The notes under the pieces are model-generated. The model was not told where the DNA came from. It did not search any database and was given only the letters and a program-made list of their open reading frames with translations. The translations under genes and the position numbers were made by a program. DNA of 64,000 nucleotides, from the NCBI RefSeq assembly GCF_009914755.1, contig NC_060933.1; one strand, given 5' to 3'. This DNA is from the human T2T-CHM13v2.0 reference genome, Homo sapiens. This document shows, piece after piece, positions 3,662-54,586 of this stretch (position 1 is its first letter; every line of letters starts with the position of its first letter).

Positions 3662-3838
<177 letters not shown>

Positions 3839-5110
3839 TCAACATTCTCAAAAAGGAATGCTTGTTTTTGTAAGCTGACCAATCACTGATTGTTAACATG
3901 AGCATAGCAAATAAATAAAACATGTTTGAATATTTATACATCATTGTTTGCTCTTCATCCATGAGTCCTTTTCACATAACTACCATATTTAATCTATTCC
4001 AAGAAGCACACTCTCACTATATATTAATCTCTCTGAAATTAGCATGCATCTTACTATGGATGACATATCAGTTTATTCACATACTTTTCTCTTTCTAAGA
4101 AACATAAAATACTGGTGTGCCTCACCATCAGTGGCATCTCTGATATGACTGACACATTACTCTGCCATTATTTTGCCCTGAGAAGTAATACTGGCAGCCC
4201 AGCTAGACAGAAAACTTTTAGACAATGACTATTCTACTGTAGCCAAACACCACAGAAAAAAATGAGGGGTACCCAGCCCCATCTATGTCAGCAAAGGCTG
4301 AGAAGGGAACTTAGACTTTGACCCTCGAGAGGCTGTAACAAGGCGACACACCTCCTAGGGTGTTGTCAGGGAAGGCCAAGTAGGAAGCTGAGCCTTTTAT
4401 TCCTATCAGTTGGTAACAAGTGGACCCCCTCCACCCCCACTGTGGTGTCAGCAAAGAACACATGGAGAGCCCTAACTTCCACCTGCACTTGGGAGTAGTG
4501 GGCACCCTCCCCATCTCCTCCTGGGCAGTGTCACAGGAGGGCGAGTGGAGAGTCAGGACTATTAGCATCACCCAGCAGCAACAAAGAAACCCCCAACGAT
4601 GTCAATGGAGGCCGAGTAGGGCCCCTGAATTGTTCCTCCTCCTGGCAGTATGAGGCAGCAGTCCCCTAGCCCCTTCCCCTGTTGGAATCATGTCAGAGAA
4701 AGCCAAATAAAAGAGATGGCTTAAACTAGACATGGACTACAGCGGCACAATATGAAAGTGTCTAGGTTTCCATCAAATATCCCTTATATCAAGAACCAGA
4801 AGATATCAAGTAGAATGAAACAACAAATGCCAATAGTGAGATGACAGAGATATCAAGATTATCTTACAACAATTTTAGAGCAGCCACGATAAAAATATTT
4901 TAATGAGCCACCATGAAGACACCTGAAGCAAATGAAATAATAAAAAGCCTCAGTGATGAAATGGAAGATACAAAGAAGAGTCCTACAGAGATATCAGAAC
5001 TGAAAAACTAAATTACTAAAATAAGAAGCTTAGTGGATGGGCTCAGCAGCAGAATGGAGGCAGAGGAAGGATCAGTGAACTGAGACAAGCAATAGAAATT
5101 ATTCACTGAC

Positions 5111-22710: not shown

Positions 22711-23557
22711 CAATTCCTTTACCTCAGCAAGCAGTCACAGAAAGCTTTCATCAGATTACAATCAACAACCCCATAAAATGTGCCTTTTCTAGTTTTCTAA
22801 TACCTGCCAAGAAAATAATTCCCTACCAATCAAAAACCAAGCAAACAACCCATTTGCATTAGACTAGAGGAAAGTGGGAGGCTCTGATATGAGCTTATTT
22901 CTTCAAACTTGCCATCAAGAATGGAAGTCAGGATACTTGGTTTATATTATTATTATTACTATTTTTGAGATGGTCTCACTCTGTCATCCAGGCTGAATTG
23001 CAGTGGTGTGAACACGGCTCATTACAGCCTCAACCTCCTAGGATCAAGGGATCCTCCTGCCTCCGCCACCTGTGTAGCTGGGACTACAGGTTCACGCTAG
23101 TGCCAGGTTTATTTTTATTTCTTGTAAACACGGGGTCTCACTACATTGCCCAGGCTAGTCTCATATGCCTAGGCTCAAGCAATCCTCCCTTCTTGGCCTC
23201 CCAAAGTGTTAGGATTACAGGCATGAGCCACTAAACCTGGCCAATTTCTAATTTTAGGGTTAGAACTAAAGATTTTAAAGATCACTTCCAGCTGTAGGAT
23301 TCCTGGACACTACTTCTCCTTATCTGTTTCCAAGACAAATAATGTAATCACCAAACTAGCTTAGGGATAACATAAGGTGCTCCCTTACATTAAAAAATCA
23401 CAAAAGTAAAAAACTTAACTGTTAAAGTAAAAAAACACAAAAAGATCCAGAAATGGAAACAAGAATGGAAGATGGAAGATATTTCCCTTGCTCTACTTTC
23501 CCCACACTGTGTCATTTTATAAGCCAAAATGCTATTTCCAGCAATAAATTCATTTAA

Positions 23558-23782
<225 letters not shown>

Positions 23783-24049
23783 TGAACTCCTGACCTCAGG
23801 TGATCTGCCTGCCTCAGCCTTTGAAAGTGCTGGGATTACAGGCATGAGCCACCATGCCCGGCCTAAACAATTATTTAATAACATTTTCAGGAGCAAAGAA
23901 TATACACTTAATAAAAACAACCATAAAATGCCGGTCTTCTTTGATGACTCCCAGGGAATTCACTGTATTTGAAATCATACATTCATCAAATATTTAGTTG
24001 GCCTGTTCCCGGATTATCCATACACAAGGAAATCAATGATCCTTCATCT

Positions 24050-24054
24050 TCATT
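24050..24054 (-). CDS. SPTLC1: Coding start of an alternative terminal exon giving a truncated 143-aa SPTLC1 isoform (...GTFE-stop)
   Basis: Minus strand reads TTTTTTATCTTTCTAG|AATGA. The final G of exon 5 plus AA gives Glu, then TGA. Agrees with my recollection of a short annotated isoform. Confidence 0.7.
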
Positions 24055-25339: not shown

Positions 25340-25477
<138 letters not shown>

Positions 25478-42973: not shown

Positions 42974-43876
42974 CTATCAACAAAACAACCTTCAATTTTC
43001 TTGTAGTTTCTGCAAACAATTTACATAATGTTCTTGATGACAATAAAAATATTGTGCATATTGAAAAAAAAGAAGGGATGTTAACAATCACCAGATATTG
43101 AGCAAGTGTCTAACAGATCAATAAAACTGATAAAACAATCAGTACAGTGCAAAAGGGTAAAAATAAAAAATTTTAAGATGTGTAGGTTTCAAAAAAAAAA
43201 ATTCACCTTCCATGACCCTTCTCTGAAATCTATCTATAATCTACTGTAAACCAAGAGACAGGAAATAGCCAATGCAGAACAGAGAAAGGAAATTCTCAAG
43301 CTAATGGTGATGGGACACTCCAGGGCCACCCTGTGTAGCAGCTGCATATAACAACCAGTCAGGAGTGGAGCAGGAGAAAGAACAAAGAAAGTGAATCTAA
43401 TAGATAACTAACGTGTGAACATTCTGAATGGAGTTTTATGCTCCTAGAGGCAAACAACATAAAGACCACTGTAGAACCAATCAAGTAACCAAACAAAAAT
43501 GATTAACTCTGGGGAAAACAAAAGTATCCAATAAAGAAAATATAGCCTCATAACATTGGCCCAACTAATGAATAATACTAATGAAGTCATAAAAATATAA
43601 CCACTAAATTATCTAAGGACACATTATCCTATATCTGAACTCTGCCAGAAGAAAGGGCAGAGCAAGGTTGCTGCATGAGCTGGGGTCCTGTTAGGGGCAC
43701 CCAGGGATCGGCACCACAGCCCAAGGTCTGCACCAGGCTGCTGCACTTGCTGGAGGAAGAGTACCTTCCCCTAATCCACACAAAGGCATGACAGGAGCTA
43801 TTCCAGGCCTGGGCACAGTGAGTGTAGATGTGTTTTCAGAGAGCCAGTCTCAAATCGCCTACAATTAATGGATATA

Positions 43877-44537
<661 letters not shown>

Positions 44538-44738
44538 TAAGGAAACCTGGGGAAAAAAAAGTCAAGAAGAAAATAAAGAACAACATAAGCAAGTTTCTTA
44601 ACAAAAAAAAAAAAAAGGTAGGTCAGGTATGGGGGCTCACGCCTGTGATCCCAGCACTTTGGGAGGCCGAGGCGGGCAGATCACCAGAGGTCAGGAGTTT
44701 GAGACCAGCCTGACCAACATGGTGAAACCCCATCTCTA

Positions 44739-47360
<2,622 letters not shown>

Positions 47361-48559
47361 TTTTTCATACATGTTTCCCTAGTCCAGACACCCAAGAGTA
47401 TGTCCCTCTCTTGGGCATAAGAAAACCTAGAGTTATATTTAGGGCATCATGTGTGGTGAATAGTTGACCGAGCTGGCATGCTCACAATGACCAAATTATG
47501 TTTGTCATATTTTAATCCAATATATTGATCTACTATGAACTCGTAAATAATGTATTTGCTTTCTAGACACATTCCAGGAAGACCAGAGAAACTGACTTTT
47601 ATCCATATGGAATAATCCACTGGCAAATTTCTTTTAGGACAGACCAAAGCTGATCTAGAACATAATCTTTACATACGTGGATCCTTCCCATCAGACGAGA
47701 AAGAACATCTGGGGTGAAAGGCTCCATTAGAAGAGCAATGTGGGATGGTGCTGTGCTGACAACTGGTAGTTCCTGCCCTACATCTTTGTAGAAGACTGGA
47801 GCCCAGAGCATGCCATGGTCAACTTCTATGCTGAAGTGAAGACCTCCTTCGAGGTGTGCACGTGCTTATTACAGATATGCCACGGTGCTAAGTACCCCAG
47901 AACTACAGGAAAAAATAAGAATAGATGCTGTATCCATGATCATGAGGCACACAGGCCAGAACGCCAGCTGTGGAATCGCACAGCCCAGGTTCAAAGCCTG
48001 GCTGGGCCATGACCACCTGAATGACCTGAGGAATGGTCTCAGGCAAATTTGTAAAAAGCGGAGACCCTGCCTGCCAGGGAGGCATGTGGTAAGAGGCGCA
48101 TCCAGTCAGGTCAGGGCACCGCGTCCTCTCTTTGGAAACCTGCGAAGCAAGGCTGGTGGCCCTTGAGGCCACGGCAGCCATGGAGAAGGCGGGCCTTGCT
48201 CCAGGCGGCACAGAGGCACTGGAAAGGCCCCGGGGGAGCCTGGCGGGATCTGGCTGGTCCTGTGCTCTGCTTCCAGGTTCTGGCCCTGTAACCCGGGGGA
48301 CAGGGCCGTCCAAGACAGGGCCACTGGGTGCCAGCCAGCACCTGGGCCAGGCGCCATGGCTCTGGCGGATCAGCCCCGCACCCCCAACAGCCCCACAGGG
48401 GGGCCCATCCAGGGCCACACACCTGCCCCCAGGAGCAGGACGTCCCTGAGGCTAGAGTCCAGGGGGACTGGTGGAAGGGTCTCACCCTTTGCCCTTTGAC
48501 TCCTCTTGTAGGCACCCTCGCTGGGCTCCTAAGCACTCCTTCACACCCTGGCTCTGTCA

Positions 48560-48690
48560 CCAGCCCCATAGTGATGTCATAAACTCCCAGATGCCCAGTG
48601 TGCACCCGGCCACAGAGAAGTGGGTGACTTCGGAGTATCCTCTCCGCTTCTGACCCTTAGTTTCGTCTGTGCACAACTCGCTCAAAATGG
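48560..48690 (+). promoter_or_regulatory. Candidate promoter of the NPAP1-like copy
   Basis: CRE-like TGATGTCA (48572-48579) directly followed by TAAA, about 105 bp upstream of a strong-Kozak ATG (AAAATGG, 48687). Confidence 0.35.
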
Positions 48691-49002
48691 GCAACTCACT
48701 AAGCATATTTTGTTCCTGGTTCCACCGCAGGTCCTGGCCACGCCACCGGCAACCTGCTCGTCTTGTCCGTGAGGCCTTCCCAGCTGGCCGGGCTCACCCC
48801 GCGGCTCCTGCACCTGTGCCTGCCCCGGGAATCTGGGGCCGTTTCCCACTCCTCTTCAACCGTCAGCGACATCTTGGGCCTTCTTTTCCAGTCAGGTGGG
48901 ATGGCGCCCCTGTGAGGCTGTGTCTTATCCCTCGGAACACGGGCACCCCACAGAGGGTCCTGCCTCCTGTGGTCTGGAGCCCCCCCCTCAAGGAAGAAAC
49001 CC

Positions 49003-49910
49003 GTGCTGTCTGCTCGCAACTCCAGGATGTTTGGACACCTCAGCCCCGTGAGGATCTCTTGTCTCAGAGGCAAGTTTAACCTTCAACTTCCTTCATTAGA
49101 TGAGCAGGTGATCCCAGCCAGGCTCCCGAAGATGGAGGTGAGGGCAGAAGAGCCCAAAGAAGCAACGGAGGTGAAAGACCAGGTAGAGACCCAGGGGCAG
49201 GAGGACAATAAAAGGGGCCCCTGTAGCAATGGGGAAGCAGCTTCCACCTCTAGGCCCCTGGAGACTCAGGGAAACCTCACTTCCTCCTGGTACAATCCCA
49301 GGCCCTTGGAGGGAAATGTCCACCTCAAGAGCTTGACAGAAAACAACCAGACTGACAAGGCCCAGGTGCATGCAGTGAGTTTCTACTCCAAGGGCCATGG
49401 AGTCGCCAGTTCACACAGCCCTGTTGGAGGCATCCTTCCCTTTGGGAAGCCTGACCCACTTCCAACAGTGCTCCCTGCCCCAGTTCCGGGCTGCTCCCTG
49501 TGGCCAGAGAAGGCGGCCTTGAAGGTGCTGGGTAAAGACCACCTGCCCAGCTCTCCAGGCTTGCTGATGGTGGGGGAGGACATGCAGCCCAAGGATCCTG
49601 CAGCTCTTGGATCAAGTAGGTCTTCTCCACCCAGAGCTGCCGGCCACAGGTCCCGCAAAAGAAAACTGTCGAGGCCACCGCTGCAGCTGCAACCGACCCC
49701 TCCCCTGCAACTGAGGTGGGAGAGAGATGAGGGGCCCCCACCGGCTAAGCTTCCATGTCTATCTCCTGAGGCACTGTTGGTGGGTCAGGCTTCCCAAAGA
49801 GAAGGACGCCTCCAGCAGGGCAACATGCGTAAGAACATGAGGTTGTTAAGTAGAACATCAAAATTCAGGAGACTAAGAGAGCTGCTTAGGAGGAGAAAGA
49901 AGAGACAGCA

Positions 49911-49938
<28 letters not shown>
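49003..49938 (+). CDS. Open 311-codon UPF0607-type frame (first in-frame ATG at 49027); stop codon supplied by the Alu
   Basis: ORF track; the last codons GRRGGPRL* are Alu left-arm sequence (CACGCCTGTAA). No evidence of expression. Confidence 0.5.
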
Positions 49939-51088
<1,150 letters not shown>

Positions 51089-51956
51089 TTACTCTGACTC
51101 GGCCCACGTGCTGTTGGGCCCCTCATTTTGCCTGTCCCTCCACCTTCTCTCACACCAAGAATTGAGTAAAATTTGATATCCATAATTCCTAACTCTTCCC
51201 TGGCTCTTCCCACTGACCTTGCCCCCATTTTGGGGGTTCCACCTAATGAGAAAGGAGGCTGCTCTCATTCAGCTGCAGTTTCAGTGCCTCTGACCTCTGA
51301 CCCATGCCCCACACATCCTAGCCCCACATCTTTCTCCTTCCAGCCTCCCTTCAGAAGGGAGCCTCCTACACCCATATGTGTGCATTCCTCTCCTCCTCTT
51401 TCCTCCCCTCCTCCTCTTCCAGCAACTTTACTATAGAAAACAAAAGACCCAAGTATGCAAGCAATATATACCATGTAAATGGGTAGTGAGATTAAGTATC
51501 AGCAAGATACCAAGCCTCCTAAATTAATCCATAAATTCAACACACTTCTAATAAAAAACCCAAATGCATTTTTTTGGTTAAATATGATCACCTAAACCTA
51601 AACTCACAGTGAAGAAGGGTCAAGAATAGTCTAGACAATTTTGAAGAACACGGAGATAGAAAAACATTCTAATCAACGTTTATTATAAAGCTGTGGTATA
51701 CATGAATGAGTCTCTGGTATAAGGAGATACGAATATATCCAATGAATAAAAATAAAAGCCAGAAATAGACCCTTTAGAAGGGAATCTGGCTTACCAAAGA
51801 AGGGAAATTTCCAAGCAGTAGGTAAATACTGGATTATTCAACTAATAATGCTGAGACAACTGACCATCATATGGAAAACAATCAAATTAGACCTTTAGGG
51901 TAGGAAACGATTCCCTAAGACTTCAAAAGACCAAACTATAAAAGATTGGTAAATTT

Positions 51957-52339
<383 letters not shown>

Positions 52340-53225
52340 TCAGAATCAGAACAATACTACTCAGGAAAATATCTTGTATCACATTTTAAAATAAACCAAG
52401 TATTTTTATGGCAACAGGCATATATGGTAAAATTATAAATATAGGCAAAGAAAACACAATCACCAACTTCAAGACAGTAGTTATCCGTATGAGAGGCAAG
52501 AGTAAGTGATGGATGTGAAGGAATTTCTTAAGATGCATTTGTAATATTGTATTTACCTGTAAAAGTAAGTTTGAATTAAAAATAGCAAAATGTTAACACC
52601 AATTAATTCTGGGTGGTAGGTATATAGGTGTCTGATATCTATATCTATATCTGATAACTTTCTATATTCTTACTGTATTTCTTAATTAATGAAAATACAT
52701 ACAATATAGCAAAGATAGCCAAGAGAATGAAAAGTAAAAAATAGATGAGACACTGGAAGCAAGGAGGAAAGAGGCATAAGTGAGCGGAAGCTCCATAATT
52801 CATATTGTGGGGATCAACAGGTGTTGTCTGTAGTTGATGAATCAACAAATGGTAGTTAAGCATACTATACAGTATCTAGAATTATGAGGGTAACGTGCGA
52901 CAAATTTAAAATCAGAAAATAACCAGATGGGTAAAAAGCAGAAGTCTGTTGCTTTTCATTTTAAGTGTTCGACCATTGGAAATATTAACATGTGTGCATT
53001 CTTGGAAAAAAGGGCAAACATTAATGCTTAAATTGGAGATTTTAAAAAATGCCTGTATCATCCCTAGAATAAATTTTTTAAAATCAGGAGCTAAAGCTGT
53101 TACTCCTGGGAACTTCAAAATGTTTTGTTTCAGATAAAAAAAGGACTACTACATATAAAGCACTATAGACTGCAGGTTACTACAAGAAGCCAAATACAAG
53201 TACTTCAGGTAGCAAAATCAATTTA

Positions 53226-53321
<96 letters not shown>

Positions 53322-53347
53322 CTACAGGAGAAAAAGAATTAAAATAC

Positions 53348-53499
53348 AGTGCAGTGCTAATATTATCAATTATTAGTGTCTCTGCAACTTCAGTATTTCT
53401 TATTATTCTAATTCTACTAACTATTCTCAAGTTCGCTGTCACTCTTATTCAAGCTTATGTCTTCACACTATTAGTACGTCTTTGTTCGCATAATACATA

Positions 53500-53500
<1 letters not shown>
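53348..53500 (+). pseudogene. MT-ATP6 3' fragment (NUMT)
   Basis: Translates to ...LILLTILKFAVTLIQAYVFTLLVRLCSHNT*. Confidence 0.92.

Positions 53501-54586
<1,086 letters not shown>

What the first reader, a model, noticed from the sequence alone, without database searches (positions are those of the whole stretch)
47490..47921. Cryptic minus-strand terminal exon in frame with SPTLC1 exon 3
Seen: an acceptor TTCTTATTTTTTCCTGTAG| with the exon starting at 47902, very like the real exon 3 acceptor, and an ATTAAA on the minus strand at 47516-47511. Joining exon 3 (phase 2) gives ...NIVSG-SGVLSTVAYL-TAA-TAA, a 97-aa product that keeps the transmembrane/ORMDL-contacting helix and has no catalytic domain. 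After the two stops the same frame stays open for about 88 codons (ARAHLEGGLHFSIEVDHGMLWAPVF...CQWIIPYG*); I cannot assign this sequence to a family. Inference: the SPTLC1 promoter may drive a short chimeric transcript into the inserted block, which could also be the template for short SPTLC1 processed pseudogenes.
Basis: partly seen in the sequence, partly recalled or inferred. Interest (0 to 1): 0.7.

Follow-up and report, generated by a model that had tools for sequence, protein, structure and literature searches.

The report
SPTLC1 short-isoform exon copied nine times
The flagged stretch is not an exon of its own but the untranslated tail of a much longer alternative last exon of SPTLC1 that starts in an Alu repeat, and nine retrocopies of that short transcript elsewhere in the genome show it was really made.

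Summary
None is beyond chance, and the frame is not coding. It is closed in all 6 older paralogues and shows no third-position bias.

Nine dispersed copies (96-98% identical) hold SPTLC1 exons 1, 2 and 3 without introns. In all nine, exon 3 is joined at ...TTTCAGG|ACGGAG to window 50956, an AG acceptor in an antisense Alu. The copies then run colinear with the genome through the flagged region to 47281. They end there in poly(A), downstream of ATTAAA at 47299-47294, and most have target-site duplications.

So SPTLC1 made an exon 1-3 transcript with a 3,676-base last exon (50956-47281), predicted to give a 122-aa protein. The flagged region is 3' UTR of that exon. No copy uses 47902 or ends near 47490.

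Probes from canonical exon 4, exon 7 and the 3' end have no other copy in the genome. The transcript carried the POM121-related UPF0607 gene, with its upstream region, in antisense. Present-day expression could not be tested.

The parts
47490..47921 (-). The flagged stretch. It is an internal, untranslated part of the long alternative last exon. It is also the antisense of the upstream flank of the UPF0607 gene.
   Evidence: It is colinear in 9 retrocopies, sdA, sdB and L020. It lies 0.8-1.2 kb upstream of the UPF0607 start codon, and its NPAP1 homologue lies 1.1-1.6 kb upstream of the NPAP1 ATG.
47903..47921 (-). No copy shows it in use.
   Evidence: among 19 of 1,896 AG sites of equal crude strength. 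No discontinuity at 47902 in any of the 13 copies at 88% identity or more.
47511..47516 (-). ATTAAA proposed as the poly(A) signal. No copy ends after it.
   Evidence: All 9 retrocopies and L020 continue through 47489-47281.
47599..47865 (-). 88-codon open frame, non-coding.
   Evidence: No Pfam match. Best match among solved structures has E 0.33. Closed in 6 of 6 older paralogues, 5 of them sharing a stop at codon 14, with no codon-position bias.
47281..50956 (-). Alternative last exon of SPTLC1, 3,676 bases, recorded by retrocopies. The coding part is 50956-50848 (stop TAG at 50850-50848); the rest is 3' UTR.
50957..50958 (-). AG of the acceptor (ttttttgag|ACGGAG) in the antisense right part of an Alu (50750-50980 on the plus strand).
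   Evidence: Junction ...TTTCAGG|ACGGAG in 9 of 9 retrocopies. Sequence read.
47294..47299 (-). ATTAAA poly(A) signal that was actually used. Cleavage is at 47281 in 7 copies, 47276 in L012 and 47271 in L015.
   Evidence: Poly(T)/(TTTA)n runs abut this boundary on the plus strand in 9 of 9 retrocopies and in L020.
53227..53321 (-). SPTLC1 exon 3, whose donor joins to 50956.
49994..50750 (+). VNTR-bearing retroelement (40-base units at 50013-50644, a unique tail, ATTAAA and an A-run) inserted into the Alu. It is flanked by a 12-base repeat, GAGATTGAGA(C/T)C.
   Evidence: Roughly 80% matches to many VNTR arrays elsewhere. The name 'SVA2-like' is recalled, not tested.
49912..49993 (+). Left part of the same Alu.
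   Evidence: Sequence read.
48654..49938 (+). UPF0607 (POM121-related) open frame, antisense to SPTLC1. It is broken by a frameshift in the window (141 + 340 codons).
   Evidence: Pfam PF15229, E 2e-22. A 427-codon frame is intact in 5 of 9 retrocopies. dN/dS is 1.07.
47292..47426 (-). RefSeq alternative exon inside the 3' end of the long exon. It is 135 bases long and stays in frame between exons 3 and 4.
   Evidence: Hub table. Its GT donor exists only in the window: A at 47290, where all 12 other copies have G.
48486..48512 (-). RefSeq alternative first exon. There is no AG before it and GTGAG follows it. It lies in the CpG-rich region upstream of UPF0607.
   Evidence: Hub table.

Best explanation
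The flagged 432 bases are 3' UTR inside a 3,676-base alternative last exon of SPTLC1 (window 50956 down to 47281, minus strand).

How it works:
- The exon 3 donor (53227) splices to the AG of an antisense Alu at 50958-50957.
- The reading frame runs 36 codons into the Alu and stops at 50850-50848. The predicted product is 122 aa: SPTLC1 residues 1-86 with the first transmembrane helix, then a junction glycine codon and a 35-residue Alu-coded tail.
- The RNA continues unspliced through the antisense VNTR, the antisense UPF0607 gene with its CpG-rich upstream region, and the flagged stretch.
- It is cleaved at about 47281, after ATTAAA at 47299-47294.

Shown: this RNA existed in the germ line, because L1 machinery copied it at least nine separate times.

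Inferred: the age, roughly 15-20 million years, from about 3.9% pairwise divergence and a recalled neutral rate.

Whether the isoform is still made today is not shown.
For: - Exon 3 has 11 genomic matches: the gene, one segmental duplicate and 9 dispersed copies. Exon 2 has 10: the gene plus the same 9.
- In 9 of 9 copies, exons 1 (from base 2-29), 2 and 3 are contiguous.
- In 9 of 9, the sequence after exon 3 is ACGGAGTC..., which is window 50956.
- All 9 are colinear with the window to 47280/47281 (L017 lacks the VNTR).
- Poly(A) tails abut that end in 9 of 9. Three cleavage points are seen, and the longer ones match the window's own downstream bases.
- Target-site duplications, read by eye, are clear in 6 of 9, weaker in 2 and not evident in 1.
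- Only the window has exons 1-3 with introns followed by this sequence. The duplicate sdA holds only window 43648-54267.
- The tree is a star, with end branches of 0.013-0.026. K2P distance from window to copies is 0.029-0.042.
- Against coding: the 88-codon frame is closed in 6 of 6 older paralogues, 5 of them sharing a stop at codon 14.
Against: - No transcript data could be consulted.
- The RefSeq table given by the hub lists no exon starting at 50956, so present-day use is unproven.
- The window now differs from the copies at several bases of this exon, for example T for C at the 14th base of the exon and A for G at 47290. These changes could have altered its use.
- The acceptor has G at -3, which is weak.
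- Retrocopies record only RNAs that were captured. Minor use of 47902 is not excluded.
Confidence: 0.85

Rival explanations
1. Exon 3 splices to 47902 and the RNA is cleaved near 47490, giving a 97-aa protein with only the first transmembrane helix.
For: The polypyrimidine tract and AG are strong, in the top 1% of AG sites in the intron (19 of 1,896). ATTAAA is in place. The stop would lie in the last exon, so the RNA would escape nonsense-mediated decay (inference).
Against: None of the 9 retrocopies uses this junction or this 3' end. Eighteen other sites in the intron look equally good. The RefSeq exons listed on either side (48486-48512 and 47292-47426) bypass it (hub table; their connection is inferred). 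The first exon base is T, and it is C in all other copies.
Confidence: 0.1
2. The 88-codon frame (47865-47599) encodes a protein or a domain of an unknown family.
For: The frame is open in the window and in 7 of 10 young copies.
Against: No Pfam match, and the best match among solved structures has E 0.33. The frame is closed in 6 of 6 older paralogues, 5 of them sharing a stop at codon 14. Substitutions are not concentrated at third positions. 105 frames this long occur in the window. There is no start context, because it follows two stops.
Confidence: 0.02
3. The dispersed copies arose by DNA-level duplication of a block, not by reverse transcription of an SPTLC1 RNA.
For: Two copies on chromosome 9 (sdA at 94.58 Mb and sdB at 100.01 Mb) do share flanks with the window and are segmental duplicates.
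Against: The other 9 lack all three introns, end in poly(A) at a poly(A) signal, start within exon 1, have different flanks and mostly have target-site duplications.
Confidence: 0.01

Closest known systems
Alu exonization through the antisense-Alu 3' splice site (mechanism recalled; no paper read here)
   Same: A poly(T) run from the antisense Alu tail serves as the polypyrimidine tract, and the AG of GAG just after it is the acceptor. The Alu supplies the coding tail and the stop.
   Different: Here the Alu starts a 3.7-kb last exon rather than a short cassette exon. The evidence for its use comes from retrocopies, not from transcripts.
Intronic polyadenylation isoforms, including the RefSeq short SPTLC1 form ending at 23549-24054 (hub table; its length of 143 aa is recalled)
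   Same: Premature termination inside an intron gives a protein with the N-terminal membrane part and no catalytic domain.
   Different: It ends two exons earlier (after exon 3 instead of exon 5), and it is not in the RefSeq table given.
SPTLC1P processed pseudogenes (names seen in gene lists only)
   Same: The copy at C6:23.72 Mb lies close to where one paper places SPTLC1P2 (chr6:23.8 Mb in that paper's own assembly coordinates, so the match is approximate). The nine copies are most likely these annotated pseudogenes.
   Different: I found no text stating that they derive from a chimeric exon 1-3 plus intron 3 transcript, or that they carry UPF0607.
UPF0607 / NPAP1 / NPAP1L family of POM121-derived retrogenes (Neumann et al. 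2014, PMC3942032; passages and Table S2 read)
   Same: The plus-strand frame at 48654-49938 matches Pfam POM121. Homology reaches NPAP1 on chromosome 15 and the two NPAP1L loci on chromosome 9.
   Different: The paper speaks of duplication of UPF0607 in some primates and does not mention SPTLC1 (0 occurrences). Here the young copies are shown to be antisense passengers of an SPTLC1 RNA.
PMCHL1/PMCHL2, born from retroposition of an antisense MCH-locus RNA (recalled)
   Same: Reverse transcription of an RNA antisense to a gene moves that gene's sequence to new loci.
   Different: Here the passenger was carried whole, with about 1.4 kb of its upstream region, nine times. The copies evolve neutrally (dN/dS 1.07).

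Membership tests
L1-mediated processed pseudogene (retrocopy) | Introns of the parent gene are removed precisely | tested here: met
   Exons 1-2-3 are contiguous, and exon 3 is joined to 50956, in 9 of 9 copies.
L1-mediated processed pseudogene (retrocopy) | Poly(A) tail at the 3' end, downstream of a poly(A) signal | tested here: met
   A-runs or (TAAA)n follow 47281/47276/47271 in 9 of 9 copies. ATTAAA lies 13 bases upstream.
L1-mediated processed pseudogene (retrocopy) | Target-site duplications flanking the insert | tested here: met
   Read by eye: clear (9-17 bases) in 6 of 9, weaker in 2, not evident in 1 (L016).
Alu-exonized alternative exon | The acceptor AG lies in an antisense Alu, after its poly(T) | tested here: met
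   ttttttttgag|ACGGAGTCTTGC at 50958-50956.
Alu-exonized alternative exon | Junction seen in present-day transcripts | not testable with these tools
   No RNA-seq or EST resource is available here. No exon starting at 50956 appears in the RefSeq table supplied.
   although 18 other sites in the intron look as good.
   0 of 9 retrocopies. All are colinear across both points.
Protein-coding sequence (88-codon frame) | The frame is kept open in relatives, substitutions are biased to third positions, or it matches a family | tested here: not met
POM121-related UPF0607 gene (plus strand) | Match to the POM121 family profile above its cut-off | tested here: met
   PF15229, 80.6 bits against a cut-off of 27.
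POM121-related UPF0607 gene (plus strand) | Purifying selection on the copies | tested here: not met
   Pooled dN/dS is 1.07 over 11 young copies. The frame is broken in the window, sdA and 4 of 9 retrocopies.

The most novel reading that the evidence does not exclude
SPTLC1 still makes, at least in testis or early embryo, a 122-aa protein that keeps only the first transmembrane helix and ends in an Alu-coded tail. That helix is the part that meets ORMDL and is hit by the ALS variants of exon 2. The short protein would compete for ORMDL or for the partner protomer and so adjust sphingolipid synthesis in apes. Its RNA was unusually prone to L1 capture: 9 full-length copies against none found for the normal mRNA. 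In that way it spread a whole antisense gene (UPF0607) with its promoter region.
Probability: 0.1. Interest if true: 0.75.

Novelty: new member of a known kind. Interest (0 to 1): 0.5.

Why it matters
- It replaces a guessed exon with a documented one. The genome itself records, nine times over, an SPTLC1 isoform that stops after exon 3 in an Alu-derived exon.
- It explains why SPTLC1 pseudogenes and UPF0607 pseudogenes sit together.
- It shows how the ape UPF0607 copies arose: as antisense passengers carried with their upstream region. This is an uncommon way to duplicate a gene together with its promoter.
- It gives exact junctions to look for in RNA data: 53227->50956, with a 3' end at 47281.
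- An isoform holding only the first transmembrane helix bears on the ORMDL-dependent control of serine palmitoyltransferase, which is disturbed in SPTLC1-linked childhood ALS.
- In practice, the nine near-identical copies of exons 1-3 can mislead read mapping and variant calling in exon 2.

Tried and rejected
- The 88-aa frame gave no Pfam family at E up to 1. Its best matches among solved structures have E 0.33-1.7 and are unrelated.
- Rfam at gathering thresholds over 46500-51000 gave nothing.
- My first reading was that the 3.7-kb unit was a plus-strand element, either an SVA-type 5' transduction or a UPF0607 retrocopy, because the VNTR, the Alu and the POM121-like frame are all on the plus strand. 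I dropped it when all nine copies showed poly(T) before 47281 on the plus strand and exon 3 at the other end.
- sdA as the source was rejected. It holds exon 3 but not exon 1 or 2 in the 60 kb examined.
- The older 5'-truncated copy L020 (chr8:36.6 Mb, K2P 0.118) has the same 3' end and poly(A) but no SPTLC1 exon, so its parent RNA is undetermined.
- Literature searches that found nothing on this structure:
  - 'SPTLC1' + 'retrocopies': 0 papers.
  - 'SPTLC1P': 14 papers seen as a listing; passages read in one; a gene-list name there.
  - 'SPTLC1' + 'processed pseudogene': 5 papers, passages read in one, unrelated.
  - 'SPTLC1' + 'exonization': 0 papers.
  - 'SPTLC1' + 'intronic polyadenylation': 0 papers.
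  - 'SPTLC1' or 'FLJ37424': none of the 8 top-ranked papers holds FLJ37424, and a paper with both terms would rank first.
  - 'SPTLC1' + 'truncated isoform': 2 papers, both unrelated by title.
- Table S1 of PMC3942032 was not opened.

Full report
**1. The observation**

On the minus strand the window reads ttcttattttttcctgtag|TTCTGGGGTACTTAGCACCGTGGCATATCTGTAATAAGC. The AG is at 47904-47903 and the first exon base at 47902. Exon 3 ends ...AACATCGTTTCAGG|gtaaat. Joining the two gives ...NIVSG SGVLSTVAYL, two stops, and a 97-aa product. ATTAAA is at 47516-47511. The 88-codon stop-to-stop frame is at 47865-47599.

**2. Is it more than chance?**

- By a crude count (pyrimidines at -20..-5, Y at -3, no AG within 14 bases upstream), 19 of the 1,896 AG sites of intron 3 on this strand are as good or better. 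The site looks strong, but it is not unique.
- AATAAA or ATTAAA occurs 38 times in the 27,775-base intron.
- Frames of at least 88 codons occur 105 times in the window, 27 times on this strand of intron 3.
- The 88-aa translation has no Pfam family, and its best matches among solved structures have E 0.33 or worse.

**3. What the stretch belongs to**

The 432 bases have 19 matches in the assembly:
- eleven at 96-100% identity;
- three at 88-90%;
- five pieces at 71-79%, which include the NPAP1 locus on chromosome 15 and two loci near 92 Mb on chromosome 9.

A 6.5-kb query showed that nine of the young copies share a sharp boundary at window 47280/47281 and run to about 50957.

On the plus strand the unit holds several elements:
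- a POM121-family frame (PF15229, E 2e-22), annotated as the UPF0607 pseudogene;
- an Alu, split into 49912-49993 and 50750-50980;
- a VNTR-bearing element inserted in that Alu (40-base units at 50013-50644; sequence read).

I first took the unit for a plus-strand element. That was wrong.

**4. Orientation and identity of the copies**

In plus orientation, all nine dispersed copies have a T-run or (TTTA)n run directly before 47281. The window, sdA (chr9:94.58 Mb) and sdB (chr9:100.01 Mb) instead continue with shared flank. Two copies extend 5 and 10 bases further, and those bases match the window's own flank. This is the scatter expected of a cleavage site. So the copied RNA was minus-strand, the strand of SPTLC1, and ended at about 47281, 13 bases after ATTAAA at 47299-47294.

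At the other end, all nine copies pass from window 50956 straight into the reverse complement of exon 3. Printed in the SPTLC1 sense, the junction is ...CATCGTTTCAGG|ACGGAGTCTTGC in 9 of 9 copies, allowing for scattered single-base differences. In the window, those bases are preceded by tttttttttgag, the tail of the antisense Alu.

Exons 1 (from base 2, 8, 19, 23, 26 or 29 of the RefSeq exon), 2 and 3 are contiguous in 9 of 9 copies. Target-site duplications, read by eye from the flanks, are clear in 6, weaker in 2 and not evident in 1. These are independent L1-type retrocopies of one spliced RNA: exons 1-2-3 plus a last exon running from 50956 to 47281.

**5. The source**

- Exon 3 has 11 matches: the gene, sdA and the nine copies.
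- Exon 2 has 10: the gene and the nine copies.
- sdA matches only window 43648-54267, at about 95%. It has exon 3 but not exon 1 or 2 in the 60 kb examined.
- sdB matches 44746-51422 at 87-91% and has no SPTLC1 exon.

Only the window locus has exons 1-3 with introns ahead of this sequence, so it is the source.

The tree of the 2.7-kb non-VNTR part is a star. It holds the window, sdA and the nine copies, with end branches of 0.013-0.026; sdB and L020 lie outside. K2P distance is 0.029-0.042 from window to copies, and the mean among copies is 0.0385. With a recalled hominoid neutral rate of about 1e-9 per site per year, this puts the burst at roughly 15-20 million years ago. That is an inference and could not be checked in other primates here.

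**6. Consequences for the finding**

The flagged region is 3' UTR of this 3,676-base exon. The frame from exon 3 runs [36 protein letters not shown] and stops at 50850-50848, giving 122 aa. The frame is intact in 3 of 9 retrocopies. Exon 2 encodes residues 20-55 of serine palmitoyltransferase 1 as found in solved complexes.

No copy is discontinuous at 47902, and none ends near 47490.

The 88-codon frame is closed in 6 of 6 older paralogues. Five of them (L019, L020, L021, L023, L024) share a stop at codon 14, and L022 is closed further on. It is also broken in 3 of 10 young copies. Variable sites fall 17:9:9 by codon position among young copies and 39:34:29 among old ones. It is not coding.

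Its NPAP1 homologue lies 1.1-1.6 kb upstream of the NPAP1 ATG. The stretch is therefore the upstream flank of the plus-strand UPF0607 gene, read backwards.

**7. What remains open**

Present-day use of either junction could not be tested. The RefSeq table lists no exon starting at 50956. It does list two minus-strand exons inside the unit, 48486-48512 and 47292-47426.

**8. Comparison with the literature**

Neumann et al. 2014 (PMC3942032; passages and Table S2 read) describe UPF0607, NPAP1 and NPAP1L as POM121-derived retrogenes. They note that UPF0607 duplicated in some primates. SPTLC1 is not mentioned.

SPTLC1P names occur only in gene lists in the one paper whose passages I read. One paper places SPTLC1P2 near chr6:23.8 Mb in its own assembly coordinates, close to the copy at C6:23.72 Mb in this assembly; the match is approximate. 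Seven further searches found no account of the chimeric origin.

The individual mechanisms are known kinds: Alu exonization, intronic polyadenylation, and retrocopies of an alternative transcript. I have not found this particular case, or its role in spreading UPF0607, in print.

**9. A striking asymmetry**

Three probes from the canonical mRNA each match only the gene itself: exon 4, exon 7 and the last 500 bases of the annotated gene. So the assembly holds nine full-length retrocopies of the short chimeric RNA and no detectable copy of the normal mRNA at these three probes. I have no tested explanation for this.

Noticed in passing
window 47292-47426 (minus), base 47290: The RefSeq alternative exon is 135 bases long and stays open in frame between exons 3 and 4, adding 45 residues. 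Its GT donor exists only in the window (A at 47290). All nine retrocopies, sdA, sdB and L020 have G, which gives GC. The exon therefore looks like a recent gain made from the end of the old last exon.
   Followed up: partly
whole genome; probes window 25358-25451, 3665-3794 and L032:121-620: No retrocopy of the canonical SPTLC1 mRNA is detectable. Exon 4, exon 7 and the last 500 bases of the gene each match only the gene. The short chimeric RNA has nine full-length copies.
   Followed up: yes
window 48654-49938 (+) and loci L009-L017: The UPF0607 frame is 427 codons and intact in 5 of 9 retrocopies, but frameshifted in the window. Pooled dN/dS over the 11 young copies is 1.07. The copies carry about 1.4 kb of the gene's upstream region because they were reverse-transcribed from the antisense RNA.
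   Followed up: yes
G000:C9:94576866-94587803 (sdA; loci L018, L027, L028): A segmental duplicate of window 43648-54267 at about 95% identity, inverted. It includes exon 3 at 100% identity and the first roughly 920 bases of the mitochondrial insert next to exon 3. That insert is therefore older than the duplication.
   Followed up: partly
window 49912-50980 (+): A VNTR element (about 16 units of 40 bases, a unique tail, ATTAAA and an A-run) sits inside an Alu between 12-base direct repeats. The VNTR units match SVA-type arrays at about 80% at many loci. Copy L017 lacks the VNTR altogether.
   Followed up: partly
window 47281-47365: The last 85 bases of the long exon match some ten unrelated loci at 76-82%. 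From memory they resemble the antisense of the start of L1 ORF2. The poly(A) site therefore seems to lie in an old L1 fragment.
   Followed up: no
L024 (G000:C9:92017000-92023000), positions 3810-4361: In this old NPAP1L-type paralogue, homology to the window breaks exactly at 47901/47903, and the next segment (47903-48052) is inverted. I have no explanation and take it for coincidence.
   Followed up: no
L020 (G000:C8:36595500-36600500): An older retrocopy (K2P 0.118) with the same 3' end at 47281 and a poly(A) tail. It is 5'-truncated in the VNTR and has no SPTLC1 exon. It shows that this poly(A) site was in use long before the burst.
   Followed up: partly
G000:C19:37357573-37357767: A 71% match to window 47715-47907 on chromosome 19, outside the known NPAP1/UPF0607 loci. 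Not examined.
   Followed up: no
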